Origin: an uncultured Hyphomicrobiales bacterium
GTDB lineage: Bacteria; Bacteroidota; Ignavibacteria; Kapaibacteriales; UBA2268
Assembly: GCA_964645005.1 (NCBI GenBank)
Contig: CAZXYS010000006.1
Location: 4,741 to 68,740, forward strand
Direction of reading: 5' to 3'
DNA: 64,000 bases
Positions within the stretch are counted from its first letter, which is position 1, and every line of letters begins with the position of its first letter. Shown here in pieces: positions 24,079-39,274 of the stretch. The notes under the pieces were generated by a model. That model saw only the letters and a program-made list of their open reading frames with translations, made no database searches and was not told the DNA's origin. The translations under genes and the position numbers were made by a program.

Positions 24079-24262
24079 AACCCGGATTTTGCATCAGAAC
24101 AAAAACAATCTCTTATTCCCCCTCATCCTCAGCCCTTCTCCCGCCGGGAGGGGTGTAAGAATTTCTTTTTACTCTGAAAGTCCCTTCTCCACTTGGGAGA
24201 AGGGTTTTAGGAATGAGGGAATTCTTATAATGAATTTTCCGGGTTAATGCTATTTTTGTATT
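24079..24262 (+). repeat. MITE-like hairpin repeat, family 1, full-length copy B (~180 bp)
   Basis: Long imperfect palindrome ccctcatcctcagcccttctcccgccgggagg ... cccttctccacttgggagaagggttttaggaatgaggg. Lies in the dxs/pcm divergent intergenic region. Confidence 0.7.
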
Positions 24263-24399
24263 TTGAATTTGGGTTAATTCAAATTCATGCCTTTTGAGAA
24301 AAATAATTTGTATAATAGATCTAATATTTTTATAACTTTATCCTCTTTGTAAATAATTATCAAAAAAATAGTCATATTAATCAGTTCAAATAATGTAAA

Positions 24400-25149
24400 A
24401 TGTATGATATGACCCTATTAGAAAAAATTGGCAGCAAGGCTGTGCTATTCCTGTTTTTTCTGTCGAGTGTAATCAATTGCGGTAAGAGCAACGGCAATGG
24501 CGACAGTAATAGCTTCGAAAAACAGCGAATACAAATGGTGCAGGAGCAAATAAGAGCTCGTGGAATTTATGATGTGAAAATACTCGAAGCGATGCGAAAA
24601 GTTCCTCGTCATTTATTTGTACCGGAATCTTACAGAAACAGAGCCTACGGAGATTCTCCCCTTCCTATTGGAGAGGGACAGACAATATCCCAACCTTATA
24701 TCGTGGCTTTCATGTCGGAAAAGTTGAATCCGAAGAAAAATGAAAAAGTCCTTGAAATCGGCACTGGCTCAGGCTATCAGGCTGCAATTCTTGCCGAACT
24801 GTGCGACAGTGTTTTTTCCATCGAGATCTTTGAATCGCTGGGGAATAAAGCAAGGGGAACGCTCAATGAACTTGGCTGTGACAATGTTTTGGTCAAGATC
24901 GGCGACGGCTACAAAGGCTGGAAAGAACATGCCCCTTTTGATGCAATAATTGTTACCTGCTCGCCTTCTCATATCCCGGAACCTCTCAAGGAGCAGCTTG
25001 CCGAAGGGGGCAGAATGATAATCCCTGTCGGTGAAACATTTACCCAGAAATTAGTCCTGCTCACAAAGGAAGACGGAAAAATTACCAAAAATTCAGTTCT
25101 GCCGGTTCGCTTCGTACCGATGATCGATGACAGAGGTAAAAAATATTGA
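24400..25149 (+). CDS. pcm: Protein-L-isoaspartate O-methyltransferase with N-terminal lipoprotein-type signal
   Basis: MVQEQIRARGIYDVKILEAMRKVPRHLFVP...GEGQTISQPYIVAFM...VLEIGTGSGYQAAILAEL (SAM motif I). N-terminal hydrophobic segment ending in a Cys (LFLFFLSSVINCG). Confidence 0.85.
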   Translation: MYDMTLLEKIGSKAVLFLFFLSSVINCGKSNGNGDSNSFEKQRIQMVQEQIRARGIYDVKILEAMRKVPRHLFVPESYRNRAYGDSPLPIGEGQTISQPYIVAFMSEKLNPKKNEKVLEIGTGSGYQAAILAELCDSVFSIEIFESLGNKARGTLNELGCDNVLVKIGDGYKGWKEHAPFDAIIVTCSPSHIPEPLKEQLAEGGRMIIPVGETFTQKLVLLTKEDGKITKNSVLPVRFVPMIDDRGKKY

Positions 25150-25323
25150 TTTGACAAATATATAAGGTGTTAACATGAAAAAGCTATTGAGTGTTATTAT
25201 CTTATAAACTCTGATCTCCGGTAACAAAGAGTTAACGCAGCCTTAGCGATGATGAAGATACATTAGAAGCACGTGGATATTTAGGTATTTCATTAATCGG
25301 AAGGACGGCATTCCGTACTCGGG

Positions 25324-25701
25324 CTAAGGACTGACATTAGTGAGCCGGATTAGATGAGCCGGACATTCCCGGCAGTCTGAAGAACCAAAACCCTTTACCG
25401 GCACTTCGGAATTTTGTCGATTCAATAATTCTCCGTTTAGTTCACATTCAATCTTCTTTTTTGAGGGGAATTTCTTAATATCAATGATCTCAACATTGTC
25501 ATCAGCAAGTAGAAAGTCTATATGCCAGTGTTGTTTTTTGTCTTTCCGTTGATGACGTTGAACTCTCTTTTCCAGTCCTCTCATTGCACTGCCGGTATAT
25601 ACATATTTACCGGCAGGGAACCGGCATTGACCAAGTGAGCCAATTTTTACCTTGATTTCCTTTTTAATATTAATTATCAACTGATAGGCGCCGGAGTTCA
25701 T
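25324..25701 (-). CDS. DUF123 / GIY-YIG-superfamily small protein
   Basis: GAYQLIINI...GKYVYTGSAMRGLEKRVQRH...HWHIDFLL...GFGSSDCRECPAHL matches the DUF123 hallmark blocks. 4-nt overlap with the upstream SDR gene. Confidence 0.6.
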   Translation of the reverse strand: MNSGAYQLIINIKKEIKVKIGSLGQCRFPAGKYVYTGSAMRGLEKRVQRHQRKDKKQHWHIDFLLADDNVEIIDIKKFPSKKKIECELNGELLNRQNSEVPVKGFGSSDCRECPAHLIRLTNVSP

Positions 25702-26405
25702 TGATCTTTCTCTGGTTTCCAGTTTTTCATAAACAGGTCGAAAAGGAAATTAGGCAGTACCTTTACTAATTTTGTAGAAAAAGCCATGGGAAATGGGAAA
25801 CTGATTACTTGTTTTTTTCTTTGAATACCTTTTGCAATAATTTTTGCTGCCTTATCAGCTTCCATAAGAAAAGGCATGTGGAATTGATTCTTTGCTGTAA
25901 TGTTTGATTTTACAAATCCCGGTCTGATCGTGATAACTCTAATTCCATGTCTTTTCAATTCCACTCTGGCGGATTCCAGAATATATGCTGCGGCTGCTTT
26001 ACTCGCGCTGTAGGTTGACGAGCCTGGGAAGCCTCTGGCATCAGCTAAAGAACCTATACCTGCTATAATTCCTCCGCCTTGCTTTATCATAGCCGGAACT
26101 AAAAATTCCAAAGCGTAAACTATACCGTTAATATTAATATCCATCACTTTATGAAATTGGTCATTATTCCAACTTTGGAATAAATTATAGCCGCCAACTC
26201 CGGCATTGAGTATCGCCAGATCAATCCTTTCCATTATATCGAAAGCCGAATTGATAGTATCCCGAACTGCTTTCCTATCAGTTACATCGCATATTTTGTA
26301 ATGGGCTTTACCACCTTTTGAGCGTATCTTCTCACATACTTCAATGAGTGCTTTCTTGTCTCGGGCAGCCAAGAAAAGCTCGGCTCCCTGCGAGGCATAT
26401 TCCAT
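25698..26405 (-). CDS. Short-chain dehydrogenase/reductase (SDR), probably starting at a non-canonical ATT codon at 26459
   Basis: NAGVGG and YSASKAA (YxxxK) motifs. The cofactor motif TGGSKGIGKALA is encoded in-frame upstream of the first ATG, with no ATG/GTG/TTG between it and an in-frame TAA at 26481-26483. AGGTGG lies 10 nt upstream of the ATT at 26457-26459. Confidence 0.8.
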   Translation of the reverse strand: MEYASQGAELFLAARDKKALIEVCEKIRSKGGKAHYKICDVTDRKAVRDTINSAFDIMERIDLAILNAGVGGYNLFQSWNNDQFHKVMDININGIVYALEFLVPAMIKQGGGIIAGIGSLADARGFPGSSTYSASKAAAAYILESARVELKRHGIRVITIRPGFVKSNITAKNQFHMPFLMEADKAAKIIAKGIQRKKQVISFPFPMAFSTKLVKVLPNFLFDLFMKNWKPEKDQ

Positions 26406-26495
26406 TGCAAGCGCTTTGCCTATTCCTTTGGAACCGCCTGTAATAAAGACTTTTTTAATGTCGATAATTCCACCTAATATTTACCGGGATACTGA

Positions 26496-27707
26496 TTATC
26501 TCTTCTTCAATTTCATGAATTTTCTTTTTCCGACTTTGATCATTTTCTCTTCAGATAGATCAATATTATGACCGGGGTCACTGACTTTTTCCTCATCCAC
26601 GGAAACCGCATTCTGCAACAACAATGTCCGGGCTTGCTTCTTTGATGGCGCTAGACCTGTCTGAACCAGCATATCCGTAATATTGATCTCGTCTGAATCA
26701 ATTTTATACTCGGGGATATCATCAGGAATGCCTTTGTCCTGGAACATACGGTTGAATTCGTCGTGGGCTGATTTTGCGGCTTCTTTATCATAGTATAATT
26801 CAACAATTCGCATGGCTGTTTTGACTTTAGCATCACGTGGGTGGATAGTATTATTTTTCAAGCCGGCTTCCATTTCCGCTATTTCATCCTCGCCTGCGAA
26901 AGCTCCGTATCTGAAATATGGAATTATCAAATTGTCCGGTATAGACATTACTTTGCCGAACATATCTTTTGGCAATTCGGTGAGAGCTATGTAATTATCC
27001 AGAGATTTACTCATCTTCTCGACACCGCTGGTTCCTTCGAGTATAGGCATGGTGAGTATGCACTGGGCATCTTTATCGTATGCCTGTTGGACTTCGCGAG
27101 CCAGCAGGAGATTGAACTTCTGGTCAGTGCCGCCAAGCTCTACATCGGATTCTATTGCTGCGGAATCCATAGCCTGCGCCAGCGGATACAGAAACTCATG
27201 CAGGCTGATAGGCTGCCCTCCCTTATATCTCTTTTCGAAATCGTCACGCTCAAGTAACTGGGCAACCGTAACCTGGGCAGCAAGATTTATAACTTCGGCA
27301 AAGTTCATTTTTGAGAGCCACTCGGAGTTATAGCGTACCTCGAGATTATTTTTTGAAAGCACTGCAGTTGCCTGAGCAAGATAAGTCTCACCGTTGATCT
27401 TTGTTTCTTCCATGGTCAACTGTGGGCGGGTTTTATTCCTGCCGGAGGGGTCGCCGATCATAGCCGTAAAATCACCTATGATAAGCACTGCCTTATGCCC
27501 GAGATCCTGAAATTGCCTCATTTTTTGCAATACAACTGCATGCCCAAGATGTAGATCAGGCTTGCTGGGATCGCAGCCTAATTTTATGATGAGCGGTTTG
27601 TTATTTTTCTTTGAGCGTTCAAGCTTTTTCTCAAGTTCTTCTTCCGGCAGCAATTCAACTACACCGGATTTAATCACATCCATTTGCTCTTTTACCGATG
27701 GAACCAT
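26496..27707 (-). CDS. tyrS: Tyrosine--tRNA ligase
   Basis: Class I HIGH variant (PDLHLGHAVVL). KMSKS present (KMSKSLDNYI). C-terminal S4-like domain. 403 aa. Confidence 0.9.
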   Translation of the reverse strand: MVPSVKEQMDVIKSGVVELLPEEELEKKLERSKKNNKPLIIKLGCDPSKPDLHLGHAVVLQKMRQFQDLGHKAVLIIGDFTAMIGDPSGRNKTRPQLTMEETKINGETYLAQATAVLSKNNLEVRYNSEWLSKMNFAEVINLAAQVTVAQLLERDDFEKRYKGGQPISLHEFLYPLAQAMDSAAIESDVELGGTDQKFNLLLAREVQQAYDKDAQCILTMPILEGTSGVEKMSKSLDNYIALTELPKDMFGKVMSIPDNLIIPYFRYGAFAGEDEIAEMEAGLKNNTIHPRDAKVKTAMRIVELYYDKEAAKSAHDEFNRMFQDKGIPDDIPEYKIDSDEINITDMLVQTGLAPSKKQARTLLLQNAVSVDEEKVSDPGHNIDLSEEKMIKVGKRKFMKLKKR

Positions 27708-27872
27708 TTCTATATCCCAATTTTTAACATCAAAAAAACAAAATTAATAAATTTTCAGTATATTGATGAATTATGATTAGTAGTATTGCAAATAATCTAA
27801 TTTTGTTAAATACATAATTTTTGCAATATTAATAAATCTTAAAATTATTTTTAACAAAATTGGAAAATAACT

Positions 27873-28547
27873 ATGTGTGGTAGATTTGCGCTGTCGCCGC
27901 AGACTGGCGATATAGAGAAGCTGGTGCCCGGATTGCGGGTGGAAGTTGACATTCCGCCGCGGTATAATATTGCGCCGACGCAGGATGCAGCTTCAATTCT
28001 CAATGATGATCAGAAAGCGGTGAGTTACCTGCGCTGGGGGCTTATCCCATTCTGGGCGAAGGATCCGGCAATTGGCAATAGGATGATAAATGCCAGAGCG
28101 GAAACAGTTACGGAGAAACCGGCGTACAAAGGTCCGTTCAAGAAAAAGCGTTGTTTGGTGCTTGCTACGGGCTATTACGAATGGAAGAAAGAAGCGGGCA
28201 GCAAGAGGAAAATTCCTTATTTCATCAGGCTGAAGTCGCAAAAGCCGTTCACTTTTGCGGGGCTGTGGGATAACTGGACTGATGAGAACGGAAAGGATGT
28301 GCAGTCCTGCACCCTGATCACAACGGAAGCGAATGATGTTACGTCTGAAATACATCATCGGATGCCGGTCATTATTTCGCCGGAAGCGAGGATGGATTGG
28401 CTGGACAGCGTCGCTGCTGATGTAGAGAAACTTAGCAGCCTGCTGGTGCCCTACGAGGAGGAGCCGATGGAGGCTTATGAAGTTTCAGCGCTGGTGAATA
28501 ATCCGGGTAATGATACGCCGGAGTGTATCAAGCCGGTGGATGGGTGA
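27873..28547 (+). CDS. SOS response-associated peptidase (SRAP; YedK/HMCES family abasic-site processing protein)
   Basis: Begins MCGRF (catalytic Cys2). 224 aa. Conserved WGLIPFWAKD and ETVTEKPAYK blocks. Confidence 0.85.
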   Translation: MCGRFALSPQTGDIEKLVPGLRVEVDIPPRYNIAPTQDAASILNDDQKAVSYLRWGLIPFWAKDPAIGNRMINARAETVTEKPAYKGPFKKKRCLVLATGYYEWKKEAGSKRKIPYFIRLKSQKPFTFAGLWDNWTDENGKDVQSCTLITTEANDVTSEIHHRMPVIISPEARMDWLDSVAADVEKLSSLLVPYEEEPMEAYEVSALVNNPGNDTPECIKPVDG

Positions 28548-28779
28548 AAGATTAATTGGAGTGGTTCTTAAATCGTTATTGTCTATCCTTCGACATCGCC
28601 CAGCTAAAGCAGGATTTCGCTTCATAAAAAAAGTAGAGACATACCCCTGGTCTGTCACAAAAAAAAGGTTATACTTGGGTGGAGTTGAAGTGCGGCACGA
28701 TTTCCACAATTATGAAACAGCCTCATCTATAACATATTACTTTTTTATAAAAATTTTGGTATTTTTATCCCGGAAAATT

Positions 28780-28965
28780 CATTATAAGAATTCCCTCATC
28801 CCTAAATCCCTTTTCCCAAGTGTAGAAGGGACTTTCAGTGTAATAAGAAATTCTTACACCCTTCTCCCGCCGGGAGAAGGGCTGGGGATGAGGGGGAAAA
28901 GAGATTGTTTATGTTCTAATGCAAAAATCAGGGTTTAATGTAACATCCGGATTAAGATGACGCTT
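28780..28965 (-). repeat. MITE-like hairpin repeat, family 1, full-length copy C (inverted)
   Basis: Its reverse complement aligns along its length with copy B (aatccggatgttacat...ccccctcatccccagcccttctcccgccgggagaagggtgtaagaatttctt...gggatgagggaattcttataatgaattttccgg). Confidence 0.7.
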
Positions 28966-38280: not shown

Positions 38281-38669
38281 TTACTATTATTAACACATTA
38301 ATTCGATTTTTTTCTTTACAAAATACTAAAAAAAATGTGAACAGAAACATAAATTACCTGCTAACACAGTGTGTTTCTGATTTTCGAAAATTATGTCAAA
38401 TAGGATAAATAGGCTCTATATCAAAACCCTGATTCGTTTTGTTGAAAATCAATTCCACAAATACAATTAATACTTTTGTTTATATATTTAAAATTTTTCA
38501 TCAATCATTGCCCTTTTTAAAATTCACTATAAAATCAATATAGTAAATTTTTTACATAAAGCAAAATTATTTTTAGAGTAATTATTCTTTTTTTTGAATG
38601 TGTTAATAAAATGATTATATTTATCATACGTATTAGAAATAAAAAGATGATAATTTATATCATAAAAAG

Positions 38670-38894
38670 GTGGTAAAAATGCGCACTACAATCAACGTAA
38701 GAGATGATATTATCAGTGATATTATTGAATATTATGATGCAAAATCAAAAACCGAAGCCGTAAACAAGGCATTGGAAGATTTTGCTATGGACTTGAAAAG
38801 AAAAAAAATAATTGAGATCAGAGGCAAGATTGATATTGAAGATGATTTGGATGAATTGAAGAAAAAAGAAATCCAGGAGTTGAAAGAATTATGA
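38670..38894 (+). CDS. vapB: Type II antitoxin (VapB-like)
   Basis: 74 aa, charged C-terminus. Directly precedes the PIN toxin gene and overlaps it by 4 nt. Confidence 0.6.
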   Translation: MVKMRTTINVRDDIISDIIEYYDAKSKTEAVNKALEDFAMDLKRKKIIEIRGKIDIEDDLDELKKKEIQELKEL

Positions 38895-39274
38895 ATGAGC
38901 TTGTTATGATTGACTCAAGCTGCTGGATAGAGTATCTAAGAAATAGTGATCAAAAAATTGCTGATACCGTTGTTGATTTAATACAAAATCATCAGGCATG
39001 TATTTGTGGCATTATTGAAATGGAGATCGTACAAGGTATTCGGAATAAAAAACAAGCTGAATTAGTGTCTAATCTCTTCGATATACTCAAATATTATACT
39101 ATTGTTAGAGAAGATTTCATTAATGCCGGGAAAAGAATAATTGAAATGAAGAAAAAAGGTATTATAGTTGCTACTTCCGATTGCCTTATAGCTGAAATCT
39201 GTATAAAAAATAATCTTAAACTCTACACGAAAGATAAAGATTTTAATTACTTTCAAAAACTTAAACTTTATTAA
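38891..39274 (+). CDS. vapC: PIN-domain toxin (VapC family ribonuclease)
   Basis: 127 aa. MIDSSCWIEYL (first acidic residue), EMEIVQG, and ATSDCLIAEICIKNNLKLYTKDKDF (C-terminal acidic residues) match PIN domain topology. Confidence 0.75.
   Translation: MNELVMIDSSCWIEYLRNSDQKIADTVVDLIQNHQACICGIIEMEIVQGIRNKKQAELVSNLFDILKYYTIVREDFINAGKRIIEMKKKGIIVATSDCLIAEICIKNNLKLYTKDKDFNYFQKLKLY

What the first reader, a model, noticed from the sequence alone, without database searches (positions are those of the whole stretch)
26405..26484. SDR gene whose Rossmann motif is encoded upstream of its first ATG: probable ATT initiation
Between the in-frame TAA at 26481-26483 and the first ATG (26403-26405) the frame reads ILGGIIDIKKVFITGGSKGIGKALA. 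This is the obligatory TGxxxGxG cofactor motif of SDRs, so translation must start there. Yet the stretch contains no ATG, GTG or TTG. An AGGTGG Shine-Dalgarno-like hexamer lies 10 nt before an ATT (26457-26459). ATT initiation there would give a canonical MKKVFITGGSKGIGKALA N-terminus. This implies either genuine non-canonical start-codon use or a point mutation in the start codon. Standard gene callers will truncate this protein.
Basis: seen in the sequence. Interest (0 to 1): 0.5.

Follow-up and report, generated by a model that had tools for sequence, protein, structure and literature searches.

The report
Dehydrogenase gene lacking a normal start codon
An otherwise intact short-chain dehydrogenase gene has no ATG, GTG or TTG ahead of its essential cofactor-binding motif, so it must either start at a weak ATT or ATC codon or be a freshly disabled gene; this is a known kind of oddity, of modest interest.

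Summary
On the minus strand, the SDR reading frame opens after TAA 26483-26481. It encodes ILGGIIDIKKVFITGGSKGIGKALA before the first canonical start, ATG 26405. Pfam, PDB structures and 119 homologues all need that stretch. An independent Logan assembly is 100% identical over 4.6 kb, including the ATT and the A6 run, so assembler error is excluded. As predicted, the database protein is the truncated 235-aa call.

A ribosome-binding context is present: AGGTGG plus A-rich flanks. By this window's own start-site statistics it best fits ATC 26465-26463 or ATT 26468-26466, not the proposed ATT 26459-26457.

Stable near-cognate initiation cannot be told apart from a recent start-codon mutation, because no relative closer than 55% identity exists in any collection searched.

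A weaker rival is GTG 26473 joined to the SDR frame by a one-base shift at A_AAA_AAG (26456-26450). Another gene in the window, the VTC gene, carries a real one-base deletion in a poly-A run.

Verdict: probable new member of a known kind (infC, pcnB, Deinococcus dnaA). Interest is low to moderate.

The parts
25698..26468 (-). Classical SDR (adh_short) gene, stop codon included. The 5' limit is drawn at the most upstream plausible near-cognate start, ATT 26468. The open frame itself runs up to 26480.
   Evidence: Pfam PF00106 scores 164 bits over residues 9-198 of the stop-to-stop ORF. It is 43-52% identical to 18 aligned homologues, and the NNAG, S, Y and K residues are invariant. PDB SDRs align from K9.
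26418..26441 (-). TGGSKGIG, the TGxxxGxG cofactor-binding glycine-rich motif. It lies upstream of the first canonical start.
   Evidence: The motif is present in all 119 best homologues.
26403..26405 (-). First in-frame canonical start (ATG). Gene callers use it, giving the truncated 235-aa product.
   Evidence: Its start context scores -10.4, below every true start in the window.
26470..26475 (-). Shine-Dalgarno-like AGGTGG.
   Evidence: Duplex with a generic anti-SD is -7.1 kcal/mol. That level is reached by 7.75% of random positions and 20% of gene starts in the window. The hexamer occurs only 9 times in 128 kb counting both strands.
26463..26468 (-). ATT ATC, two adjacent in-frame near-cognate codons. 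These are the best-placed start candidates, giving M(I)DIKKVFITGG.
   Evidence: Spacing from AGGUG is 2 nt and 5 nt. Context scores are 2.6 and 6.6. NCBIfam PRK07024 profile position 1 projects onto ATT 26468.
26457..26459 (-).
   Evidence: It is in frame and lies 10 nt after AGGTGG. Its context score is -3.9. The Met of homologue P0006 aligns exactly here.
26481..26483 (-). In-frame TAA that closes the frame upstream. It is the second stop after tyrS.
26450..26456 (-). A_AAA_AAG run. It encodes Lys-Lys in the SDR frame and is a slippery heptamer in the frame of GTG 26473.
   Evidence: No significant downstream structure was found.
26471..26473 (-). Out-of-frame GTG. It would give MELSTLKKVFITGG after a -1 shift, or if the A-run had seven A's.
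   Evidence: Read from the sequence. Its start context is poor, at -5.4.
26496..27707 (-). tyrS (tyrosyl-tRNA synthetase), immediately upstream and in the same frame. Its stop lies 27-36 nt before the candidate starts. It is probably co-transcribed with the SDR gene.
   Evidence: Pfam tRNA-synt_1b. No terminator-like or promoter-like site lies in the spacer.
25324..25701 (-). DUF123 / GIY-YIG-like gene. Its ATG overlaps the SDR stop (ATGA), which suggests translational coupling.

Best explanation
This is a real, intact classical SDR gene. It is co-transcribed behind tyrS and coupled to a downstream DUF123 gene. It has no ATG, GTG or TTG from which a functional protein could be made.

The tyrS-SDR spacer contains a genuine translation-initiation region: AGGUGG with A-rich flanks. 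That region places the ribosomal P site on the stretch ATT-ATC-GAC-ATT (26468-26457).

The most likely mechanism is initiation with fMet-tRNA on a near-cognate AUH codon. AUC 26465 or AUU 26468 is more likely than AUU 26459. The product would be a full-length SDR of about 255 aa, made at a few percent of the output of an AUG start.

Shown here: the sequence, the need for the N-terminal stretch, the absence of a canonical start, reproducibility in an independent assembly, and the quality of the initiation context.

Inferred: that initiation actually occurs there, and which codon is used. It remains open whether the weak start is an old, selected feature or a recent ATG-to-ATH mutation that leaves the gene leaky.
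For: The sequence and frame were confirmed. Pfam adh_short begins at K9, and the score drops 30 bits without the stretch. Eighteen aligned homologues and 119 of 119 best hits carry the glycine-rich motif 7-13 residues from their N-terminus. PDB SDRs align from K9. Logan contig SRR7048219_501336 is an independent assembly seen in 2 samples. It is 100% identical over window 24218-28794. The ORF runs 253 or more codons without a stop in a 39% GC genome, and every conserved catalytic residue is present. The SD-like duplex of -7.1 kcal/mol lies at a spacing typical of the window's SD-bearing genes for ATC 26465. In the context PWM, ATC scores 6.6, reached by 0.5% of 4977 decoys, and ATT 26468 scores 2.6. 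ATG 26405 scores -10.4 and GTG 26473 scores -5.4. From the literature: AUA, AUC, AUU and CUG initiate at 1-2% (0.02-3%) of AUG in E. coli, with Met at the N-terminus (bioRxiv 10.1101/063800). infC and pcnB use AUU. Deinococcus dnaA uses ATC, shown by N-terminal proteomics (PMC2830850).
Against: There is no orthologue close enough to show that the codon is conserved. The best SDR hit is 55% identical and the best tyrS hit 64%. tyrS-SDR synteny is absent in 80 genome loci. No expression or N-terminal data exist. The lineage uses SD sequences sparingly: 20% of starts against an 8% background. Related Bacteroidia ribosomes ignore SD sequences altogether (PMC7797042), which would make a weak start codon even weaker. 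The PWM rests on only 33 genes. Another gene 12 kb away carries a real disabling lesion, so recent gene decay does occur in this genome. AUG-to-AUU switches are extremely rare in evolution, at 1 in 61,358 (PMC5622118).
Confidence: 0.5

Rival explanations
1. Young pseudogene. A point mutation destroyed an ancestral ATG (ATG to ATT or ATC), and the SDR is no longer made in useful amounts. The ORF is still intact only because too little time has passed.
For: The same window holds a real, population-wide disabling lesion in the VTC gene. It is a one-base deletion in the A-run at 38202-38199. It is identical in three Logan runs, while the 67%-identity relative has one more A in frame. SD use in the lineage is low. 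AUG-to-AUU replacements that persist are very rare (PMC5622118). An ATG-to-ATH change needs a single substitution, and the good initiation context is exactly what a mutated ATG would leave behind.
Against: The ORF has no second lesion and all catalytic residues are intact. Near-cognate codons behind a good ribosome-binding site still initiate at about 1% or more (bioRxiv 10.1101/063800), so 'dead' and 'leaky' shade into each other. The downstream DUF123 gene is coupled by an ATGA overlap and has no SD of its own, which favours continued translation of the SDR frame.
Confidence: 0.2
2. Translation starts at GTG 26473-26471 in the +1 frame and reaches the SDR frame through the A-run at 26456-26450. 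One route is that the lineage lost one A (A7 to A6, a real frameshift mutation). The other is that ribosomes slip -1 on the dnaX-type heptamer A_AAA_AAG, helped by the AGGUGG 13 nt upstream. The product would be MELSTLKKVFITGG...
For: The GTG frame reads TTA AAA AAG, so the heptamer is in the correct register, and a -1 shift lands on GTC TTT ATT ACA GGC. The SD-like element sits 13 nt 5' of the heptamer, within the 10-14 nt range reported for dnaX-type stimulators (my own knowledge, not checked here). A real one-base poly-A contraction is documented in the VTC gene of this genome. The resulting N-terminal length, with the first Gly at residue 13, is common among homologues (17 of 114).
Against: The GTG has a poor initiation context, at -5.4, a score that 35% of decoys reach. 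It lies inside the SD-like hexamer, which then could not serve it as a ribosome-binding site. There is no significant downstream stem-loop (z = -0.77; z = 0.39). AAAAAAG is common in this AT-rich genome (50 copies in 128 kb counting both strands) and is simply Lys-Lys-Val here, residues that are conserved in the family. An in-register GTG is expected by chance about one time in four.
Confidence: 0.12
3. Sequencing or assembly error: the real codon is ATG, or the real run is A7.
For: It is a single base in a metagenome-assembled genome. Only one of the three Logan runs yields a contig that spans the site.
Against: A different assembler working on run SRR7048219 gives a contig that is 100% identical over 4577 bp, and that contig is seen in two samples. 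Four ORFs of 1150-1257 aa in the window argue against frequent indel errors. No other frameshifted ORF pairs were found. The VTC lesion is identical in three runs.
Confidence: 0.03
4. The annotated 235-aa protein starting at ATG 26405 is the true product.
For: It is the only canonical start, and it is what gene callers report.
Against: It would lack strand beta-1 and the whole glycine-rich loop. None of the 119 best homologues starts there. Its initiation context scores -10.4, below every true start in the window. The 18-25 upstream codons read as a perfect SDR N-terminus.
Confidence: 0.03

Closest known systems
E. coli infC and pcnB (AUU-initiated genes)
   Same: A conserved protein whose only workable start is a near-cognate AUH codon behind a ribosome-binding site, so output is low and presumably sensitive to IF3. 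infC also sits a few nucleotides behind the stop of an aminoacyl-tRNA synthetase gene (thrS), just as this gene follows tyrS (thrS from my own knowledge; the stop-GGU-AUU junction and re-initiation are described in PMC3592434).
   Different: In infC and pcnB the codon is conserved across species and has a demonstrated regulatory role. Here neither conservation nor any role could be tested. The gene is a generic SDR with no obvious reason for such control.
Deinococcus dnaA (ATC start) and other proteomics-proven non-canonical starts (PMC2830850)
   Same: The case was recognised the same way: conserved N-terminal residues lie upstream of the first canonical start and annotation truncates the protein. 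ATC is the best-placed codon here as well.
   Different: The Deinococcus cases have N-terminal peptide evidence and the ATC is conserved in three species. This case has neither.
dnaX / IS911-type programmed -1 frameshifting at A_AAA_AAG
   Same: The same heptamer, in register with an upstream GTG, and an SD-like element 13 nt upstream.
   Different: There is no supported downstream structure and the zero-frame start has a poor context. The site is only 6-7 codons into the ORF, and no conservation could be shown. This is a rival only, not the preferred reading.
Classical short-chain dehydrogenases/reductases (Pfam PF00106; nearest NCBIfam model PRK07024)
   Same: It has TGxxxGxG, NNAG, the S-Y-K catalytic residues and a length near 250 aa. 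It is 43-55% identical to many SDR family NAD(P)-dependent oxidoreductases from Ignavibacteria and Bacteroidota MAGs.
   Different: It scores below the PRK07024 equivalog cut-off (231 against 266 bits). The substrate is unknown.

Membership tests
Classical SDR (Pfam adh_short PF00106) | Score above the Pfam gathering threshold over the full domain | tested here: met
   164.2 bits against a 26.6 cut-off, profile positions 1-190 of 195, when the upstream stretch is included.
Classical SDR (Pfam adh_short PF00106) | N-terminal TGxxxGxG dinucleotide-binding motif | tested here: met
   TGGSKGIG at 26441-26418. G15, S17, G19, I20 and G21 are invariant in alignment A1. The motif is present only if translation starts upstream of ATG 26405.
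Classical SDR (Pfam adh_short PF00106) | NNAG motif and catalytic N-S-Y-K residues | tested here: met
   N92, G94, N116, S144, Y157 and K161 are invariant columns in A1, and all are present in the window protein.
NCBIfam PRK07024 (NF005437) SDR equivalog | Score above the curated cut-off | tested here: not met
   231.1 bits against a cut-off of 266. It is the best-matching model, but the protein is not a member.
Bacterial genes initiated at near-cognate AUU/AUC/AUA (infC, pcnB, Deinococcus dnaA type) | Conserved, structurally required residues encoded upstream of the first in-frame ATG, GTG or TTG, with a stop codon closing the frame further up | tested here: met
Bacterial genes initiated at near-cognate AUU/AUC/AUA (infC, pcnB, Deinococcus dnaA type) | The sequence at the site is genuine, not an assembly artefact | tested here: met
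   The independent Logan contig is identical over 4577 bp.
Bacterial genes initiated at near-cognate AUU/AUC/AUA (infC, pcnB, Deinococcus dnaA type) | A ribosome-binding context placed correctly for the near-cognate codon | tested here: met
AGGUGG lies 4-5 nt before ATC 26465. The context PWM gives 6.6, reached by 0.5% of decoys.
Bacterial genes initiated at near-cognate AUU/AUC/AUA (infC, pcnB, Deinococcus dnaA type) | Conservation of the non-canonical codon in orthologues | not testable with these tools
   The nearest SDR homologue is 55% identical. No syntenic locus was found in the genome or metagenome collections.
Bacterial genes initiated at near-cognate AUU/AUC/AUA (infC, pcnB, Deinococcus dnaA type) | Direct evidence of the N-terminus (peptide or initiating-ribosome footprint) | not testable with these tools
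   The organism is uncultured and known only as a MAG. No such data are available here.
dnaX-type programmed -1 ribosomal frameshift | X_XXY_YYZ slippery heptamer in register with the upstream (zero) frame | tested here: met
   A_AAA_AAG at 26456-26450 is read as TTA AAA AAG in the frame of GTG 26473.
dnaX-type programmed -1 ribosomal frameshift | Stimulatory downstream stem-loop or pseudoknot | tested here: inconclusive
   A hairpin of -14.4 kcal/mol lies 11 nt downstream, but it is not better than shuffles (z = -0.77; 47 of 200 shuffles fold as well).
dnaX-type programmed -1 ribosomal frameshift | A credible start for the zero frame | tested here: not met
   The GTG 26473 context scores -5.4, a score that 35% of internal decoys reach. 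There is no SD upstream of it.

The most novel reading that the evidence does not exclude
The weak start is not an accident but a maintained feature. In this reading, an Ignavibacteria-like bacterium that mostly dispenses with Shine-Dalgarno sequences keeps a strong SD in front of an AUC/AUU codon. That would hold an SDR, and the DUF123 gene coupled to it, at a low and IF3-sensitive level behind tyrS, much as infC sits behind thrS. A rarer variant is that the gene is expressed through a dnaX-like -1 slip at A_AAA_AAG only 6-7 codons after a GTG start.
Probability: 0.2. Interest if true: 0.45.

Novelty: new member of a known kind. Interest (0 to 1): 0.3.

Why it matters
In practice, the deposited 235-aa protein is a mis-annotation. 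It lacks the cofactor-binding loop and should be extended or flagged. This kind of truncation spreads into protein databases; here it sits in both NCBI and Logan.

Biologically, a verified AUC/AUU start in an SD-poor lineage of the FCB (Fibrobacteres-Chlorobi-Bacteroidetes) group would add a data point on how start codons are chosen when SD pairing is weak. That cannot be claimed from sequence alone.

Together with the real frameshift in the nearby VTC gene, the finding also suggests that this population carries fresh 5' lesions. That bears on how MAG completeness and pseudogene load are read.

Tried and rejected
1. Exact look-ups of the truncated SDR (P0001) and of tyrS (P0121) in the contig index returned nothing. 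The locus was reached through the neighbouring DUF123 and SRAP proteins instead.

2. I looked for syntenic relatives with tyrS in genome contigs. The best hit was 64% identical and its contig ends at tyrS. None of the 80 loci has the SDR downstream of tyrS.

3. I scanned metagenome contigs with the SDR. The best hit was 51% identical, which is no help for codon conservation.

4. Rfam found no family anywhere in the window, so there is no T-box or frameshift element. No tRNA genes were found.

5. RNA folding around the start and downstream of the heptamer gave nothing better than shuffles.

6. The sigma-70 promoter and terminator scan found nothing in the tyrS-SDR spacer, and counts matched the shuffles.

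7. I surveyed ten window ORFs with 12 or more open codons upstream for other non-canonical starts. None was found; the one positive, the VTC gene, turned out to be a frameshift.

8. N-terminal length statistics from 114 homologues do not discriminate between the candidate starts.

9. A literature search for SRR7048219 gave no paper.

10. Read-through from tyrS was rejected because two in-frame TAA codons intervene.

Full report
**What is in the sequence**

All coordinates below are minus strand. The tyrosyl-tRNA synthetase gene (27707-26496) ends with TAA at 26498-26496. Fifteen bases on, in the same frame, there is a second TAA at 26483-26481.

The frame then stays open for 260 codons down to TGA 25700-25698. 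It reads ILGGIIDIKKVFITGGSKGIGKALA before reaching the first ATG at 26405-26403. No ATG, GTG or TTG occurs in that frame between 26480 and 26406. AGGTGG lies at 26475-26470, exactly 10 nt before ATT 26459-26457.

- Two more in-frame near-cognate codons, ATT 26468-26466 and ATC 26465-26463.
- A GTG at 26473-26471 in another frame.
- The run AAAAAAG at 26456-26450.

**The upstream stretch is required**

- With the stretch included, Pfam adh_short matches from profile position 1, at the K directly after ATT 26459, with 164 bits. From ATG 26405 the match starts at profile position 19 and scores 134 bits.
- Eighteen aligned homologues (43-52% identity) all carry the TG(A/G)SxGIG motif. G15, S17, G19, I20 and G21 are invariant, as are the NNAG motif and the catalytic S144, Y157 and K161.
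- Among the 119 best database hits, none lacks the glycine-rich motif. Its first glycine sits at residue 7-13 in nearly all of them.
- Solved SDR structures align from K9 onward.
- A protein starting at ATG 26405 would lack strand beta-1 and the cofactor loop. That ATG also has the worst initiation context of all candidates.
The database entry with 100% identity is the 235-aa form, held by NCBI and Logan.

**Is the sequence real?**

The exact proteins of the SDR and tyrS could not be looked up. The neighbouring DUF123 and SRAP proteins led to Logan contigs assembled run by run from SRR7048218, SRR7048219 and SRR7048220.

Contig SRR7048219_501336 is 4577 bp and is recorded in two samples. It equals window 24218-28794 at 100% identity and includes ATT, ATC and the A6 run. 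The contigs from the other two runs stop short of the site.

An assembler-specific error is therefore excluded. Random read error is very unlikely. Read-level allele frequencies remain unchecked.

**Organism and relatives**

The best tyrS match in one-genome-per-species GTDB is 64% identical, an Ignavibacteria MAG whose contig ends at tyrS. The following hits are Ignavibacteria or Bacteroidota MAGs. The best SDR homologues are 50-55% identical.

None of the 80 tyrS loci has this SDR downstream. JGI metagenomes hold nothing closer than 51%. Conservation of the odd start therefore cannot be tested with what is available. This is the main limit of the analysis.

**Which codon?**

The window has 39% GC and uses Shine-Dalgarno sequences sparingly. 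Eight of 40 gene starts have an anti-SD duplex of -7 kcal/mol or better, against 7.75% of random positions.

The spacing from the end of the SD pairing to the start is as follows:

| Gene start or candidate | Spacing |
|---|---|
| The eight SD-bearing genes | 0-7 nt |
| The three GGUG-type genes (from the AGGUG core) | 4-8 nt |
| ATT 26468 | 2 nt from AGGUG |
| ATC 26465 | 5 nt from AGGUG |
| ATT 26459 | 11 nt from AGGUG |

I built a position weight matrix from the flanks of 33 window gene starts (positions -20 to -1 and +4 to +18, start codon excluded). It separates true starts (leave-one-out mean 2.2) from 4977 internal NTG/ATH decoys (mean -7.5). Scores for the candidates were:

| Candidate | Score | Decoys reaching that score |
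|---|---|---|
| ATC 26465 | 6.6 | 0.5% |
| ATT 26468 | 2.6 | 3.2% |
| ATT 26459 | -3.9 | 26% |
| GTG 26473 | -5.4 | 35% |
| ATG 26405 | -10.4 | 70% |

The best NCBIfam model (PRK07024, below its cut-off) aligns profile position 4 to I8. Its position 1 therefore falls on ATT 26468. Homologue N-terminal lengths fit all candidates and do not discriminate.

There is, then, a good initiation region in the spacer. The matrix is small, so this is a preference, not a proof.

**Mechanism**

The most likely reading is initiation with initiator tRNA on a near-cognate AUH codon. This gives M(I)DIKKVFITGG..., or MKKVFITGG... at lower probability.

- In E. coli, AUA, AUC, AUU and CUG initiate at 1-2% (0.02-3%) of the AUG level and still put methionine at the N-terminus (bioRxiv 10.1101/063800).
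- In another reporter, AUU gave six- to eight-fold less output than AUG (PMC3592434).
- infC and pcnB use AUU naturally. Deinococcus dnaA uses ATC, shown by N-terminal proteomics (PMC2830850).
- The SDR lies 27-36 nt behind the tyrS stop, with no terminator-like site between. Ribosomes terminating on tyrS could therefore add re-initiation events (inference; compare PMC3592434).
- The downstream DUF123 gene overlaps the SDR stop (ATGA) and has no SD of its own. This is a weak argument that the SDR frame is still translated.

**Rivals**

1. Recent loss of an ATG by a point mutation, giving a young pseudogene.
   - This cannot be separated from a maintained weak start, because the good context is exactly what a mutated ATG would leave behind.
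   - Persistent AUG-to-AUU switches are very rare, at 1 of 61,358 (PMC5622118).
   - It gains weight from a lesion found in passing. The VTC-domain gene (38247 down to 37499) has its ATG and first 16 codons (MLSAFKPTSLEQLDAK) in one frame and the rest in another.
   - Adding one A to the AAAA run at 38202-38199 gives MLSAFKPTSLEQLDAKKLINRYEQKYFF. That sequence aligns along its length with 11 homologues.
   - The four-A run is identical in three Logan runs. A 67%-identity relative has gcgAAAAAGctc in frame.
   - This population therefore does carry fresh, real 5' lesions.

2. GTG 26473 plus a one-base shift.
   - In the GTG frame the run reads TTA AAA AAG, the dnaX-type heptamer. A -1 slip, or an ancestral A7, leads straight into GTC TTT ATT ACA GGC, with AGGUGG 13 nt upstream.
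   - Against it: the GTG has a poor context and lies inside the SD-like hexamer. The downstream hairpin is no better than shuffles. AAAAAAG occurs 50 times in the window. The two lysines it encodes are conserved family residues.

3. Sequencing error. This is now unlikely.

4. The 235-aa product is real. This is rejected on structural and contextual grounds.

**Comparison and verdict**

The case works like the known near-cognate-initiated bacterial genes, and it was recognised the same way as the Deinococcus cases. Of that group's defining features:
- Four are met: required upstream residues, no canonical start, genuine sequence, and a suitable ribosome-binding context.
- Two could not be tested: conservation in orthologues and a direct N-terminus.

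The protein itself is an ordinary classical SDR of unknown substrate. The finding is real and the annotation is wrong, but the phenomenon is known and its functional status is undecided. I rate it a new member of a known kind, with interest 0.3.

Noticed in passing
window 38247-37499 (minus strand); A-run at 38202-38199: The VTC-domain (polyphosphate-polymerase-like) gene is frameshifted. ATG 38247 and 16 conserved codons are in one frame and the rest of the gene is in another. One extra A in the AAAA run restores an N-terminus that aligns with 11 homologues. The lesion is identical in three independent Logan runs, and a 67%-identity relative has AAAAA in frame. So this is a real one-base deletion in the population, and gene callers report a 205-aa fragment (P0122).
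   Followed up: yes
L170 500-640 (ENA ERZ10759773, NODE_194756, coverage 3.4x): In the closest relative of the VTC gene, the conserved N-terminal region (GDFKATSLDNLEAKKLINRYEQKYYF) is in frame with the gene but has no in-frame ATG, GTG or TTG. The nearby ATG at 531 is one base out of frame and runs into TGA after five codons. Either this is a low-coverage indel error or a second, independent 5' oddity in the same gene family.
   Followed up: partly
window 25701-25698 (minus strand): The SDR stop and the start of the DUF123 / GIY-YIG-like gene (25701-25324) overlap as ATGA. DUF123 has no SD-like sequence, so its translation may depend on ribosomes finishing the SDR frame.
   Followed up: no
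whole window (40 gene starts): Shine-Dalgarno use is low but not absent. 20% of starts have an anti-SD duplex of -7 kcal/mol or better, against about 8% of random positions. The other upstream regions are A/T-rich. This lies between typical SD-using bacteria and the SD-blind Bacteroidia.
   Followed up: partly
window 38643-39274 (plus strand): A VapB antitoxin / PIN-domain (VapC) toxin pair lies divergently next to the frameshifted VTC gene. It is also called on the Logan contigs.
   Followed up: no
window 24218 and 28794: Logan contigs L164 (run SRR7048219) and L165 (run SRR7048220) both end at position 24218, in a 30% GC intergenic stretch. L164 also ends at 28794. These may be strain-variable or repeat boundaries that break the de Bruijn graph.
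   Followed up: no
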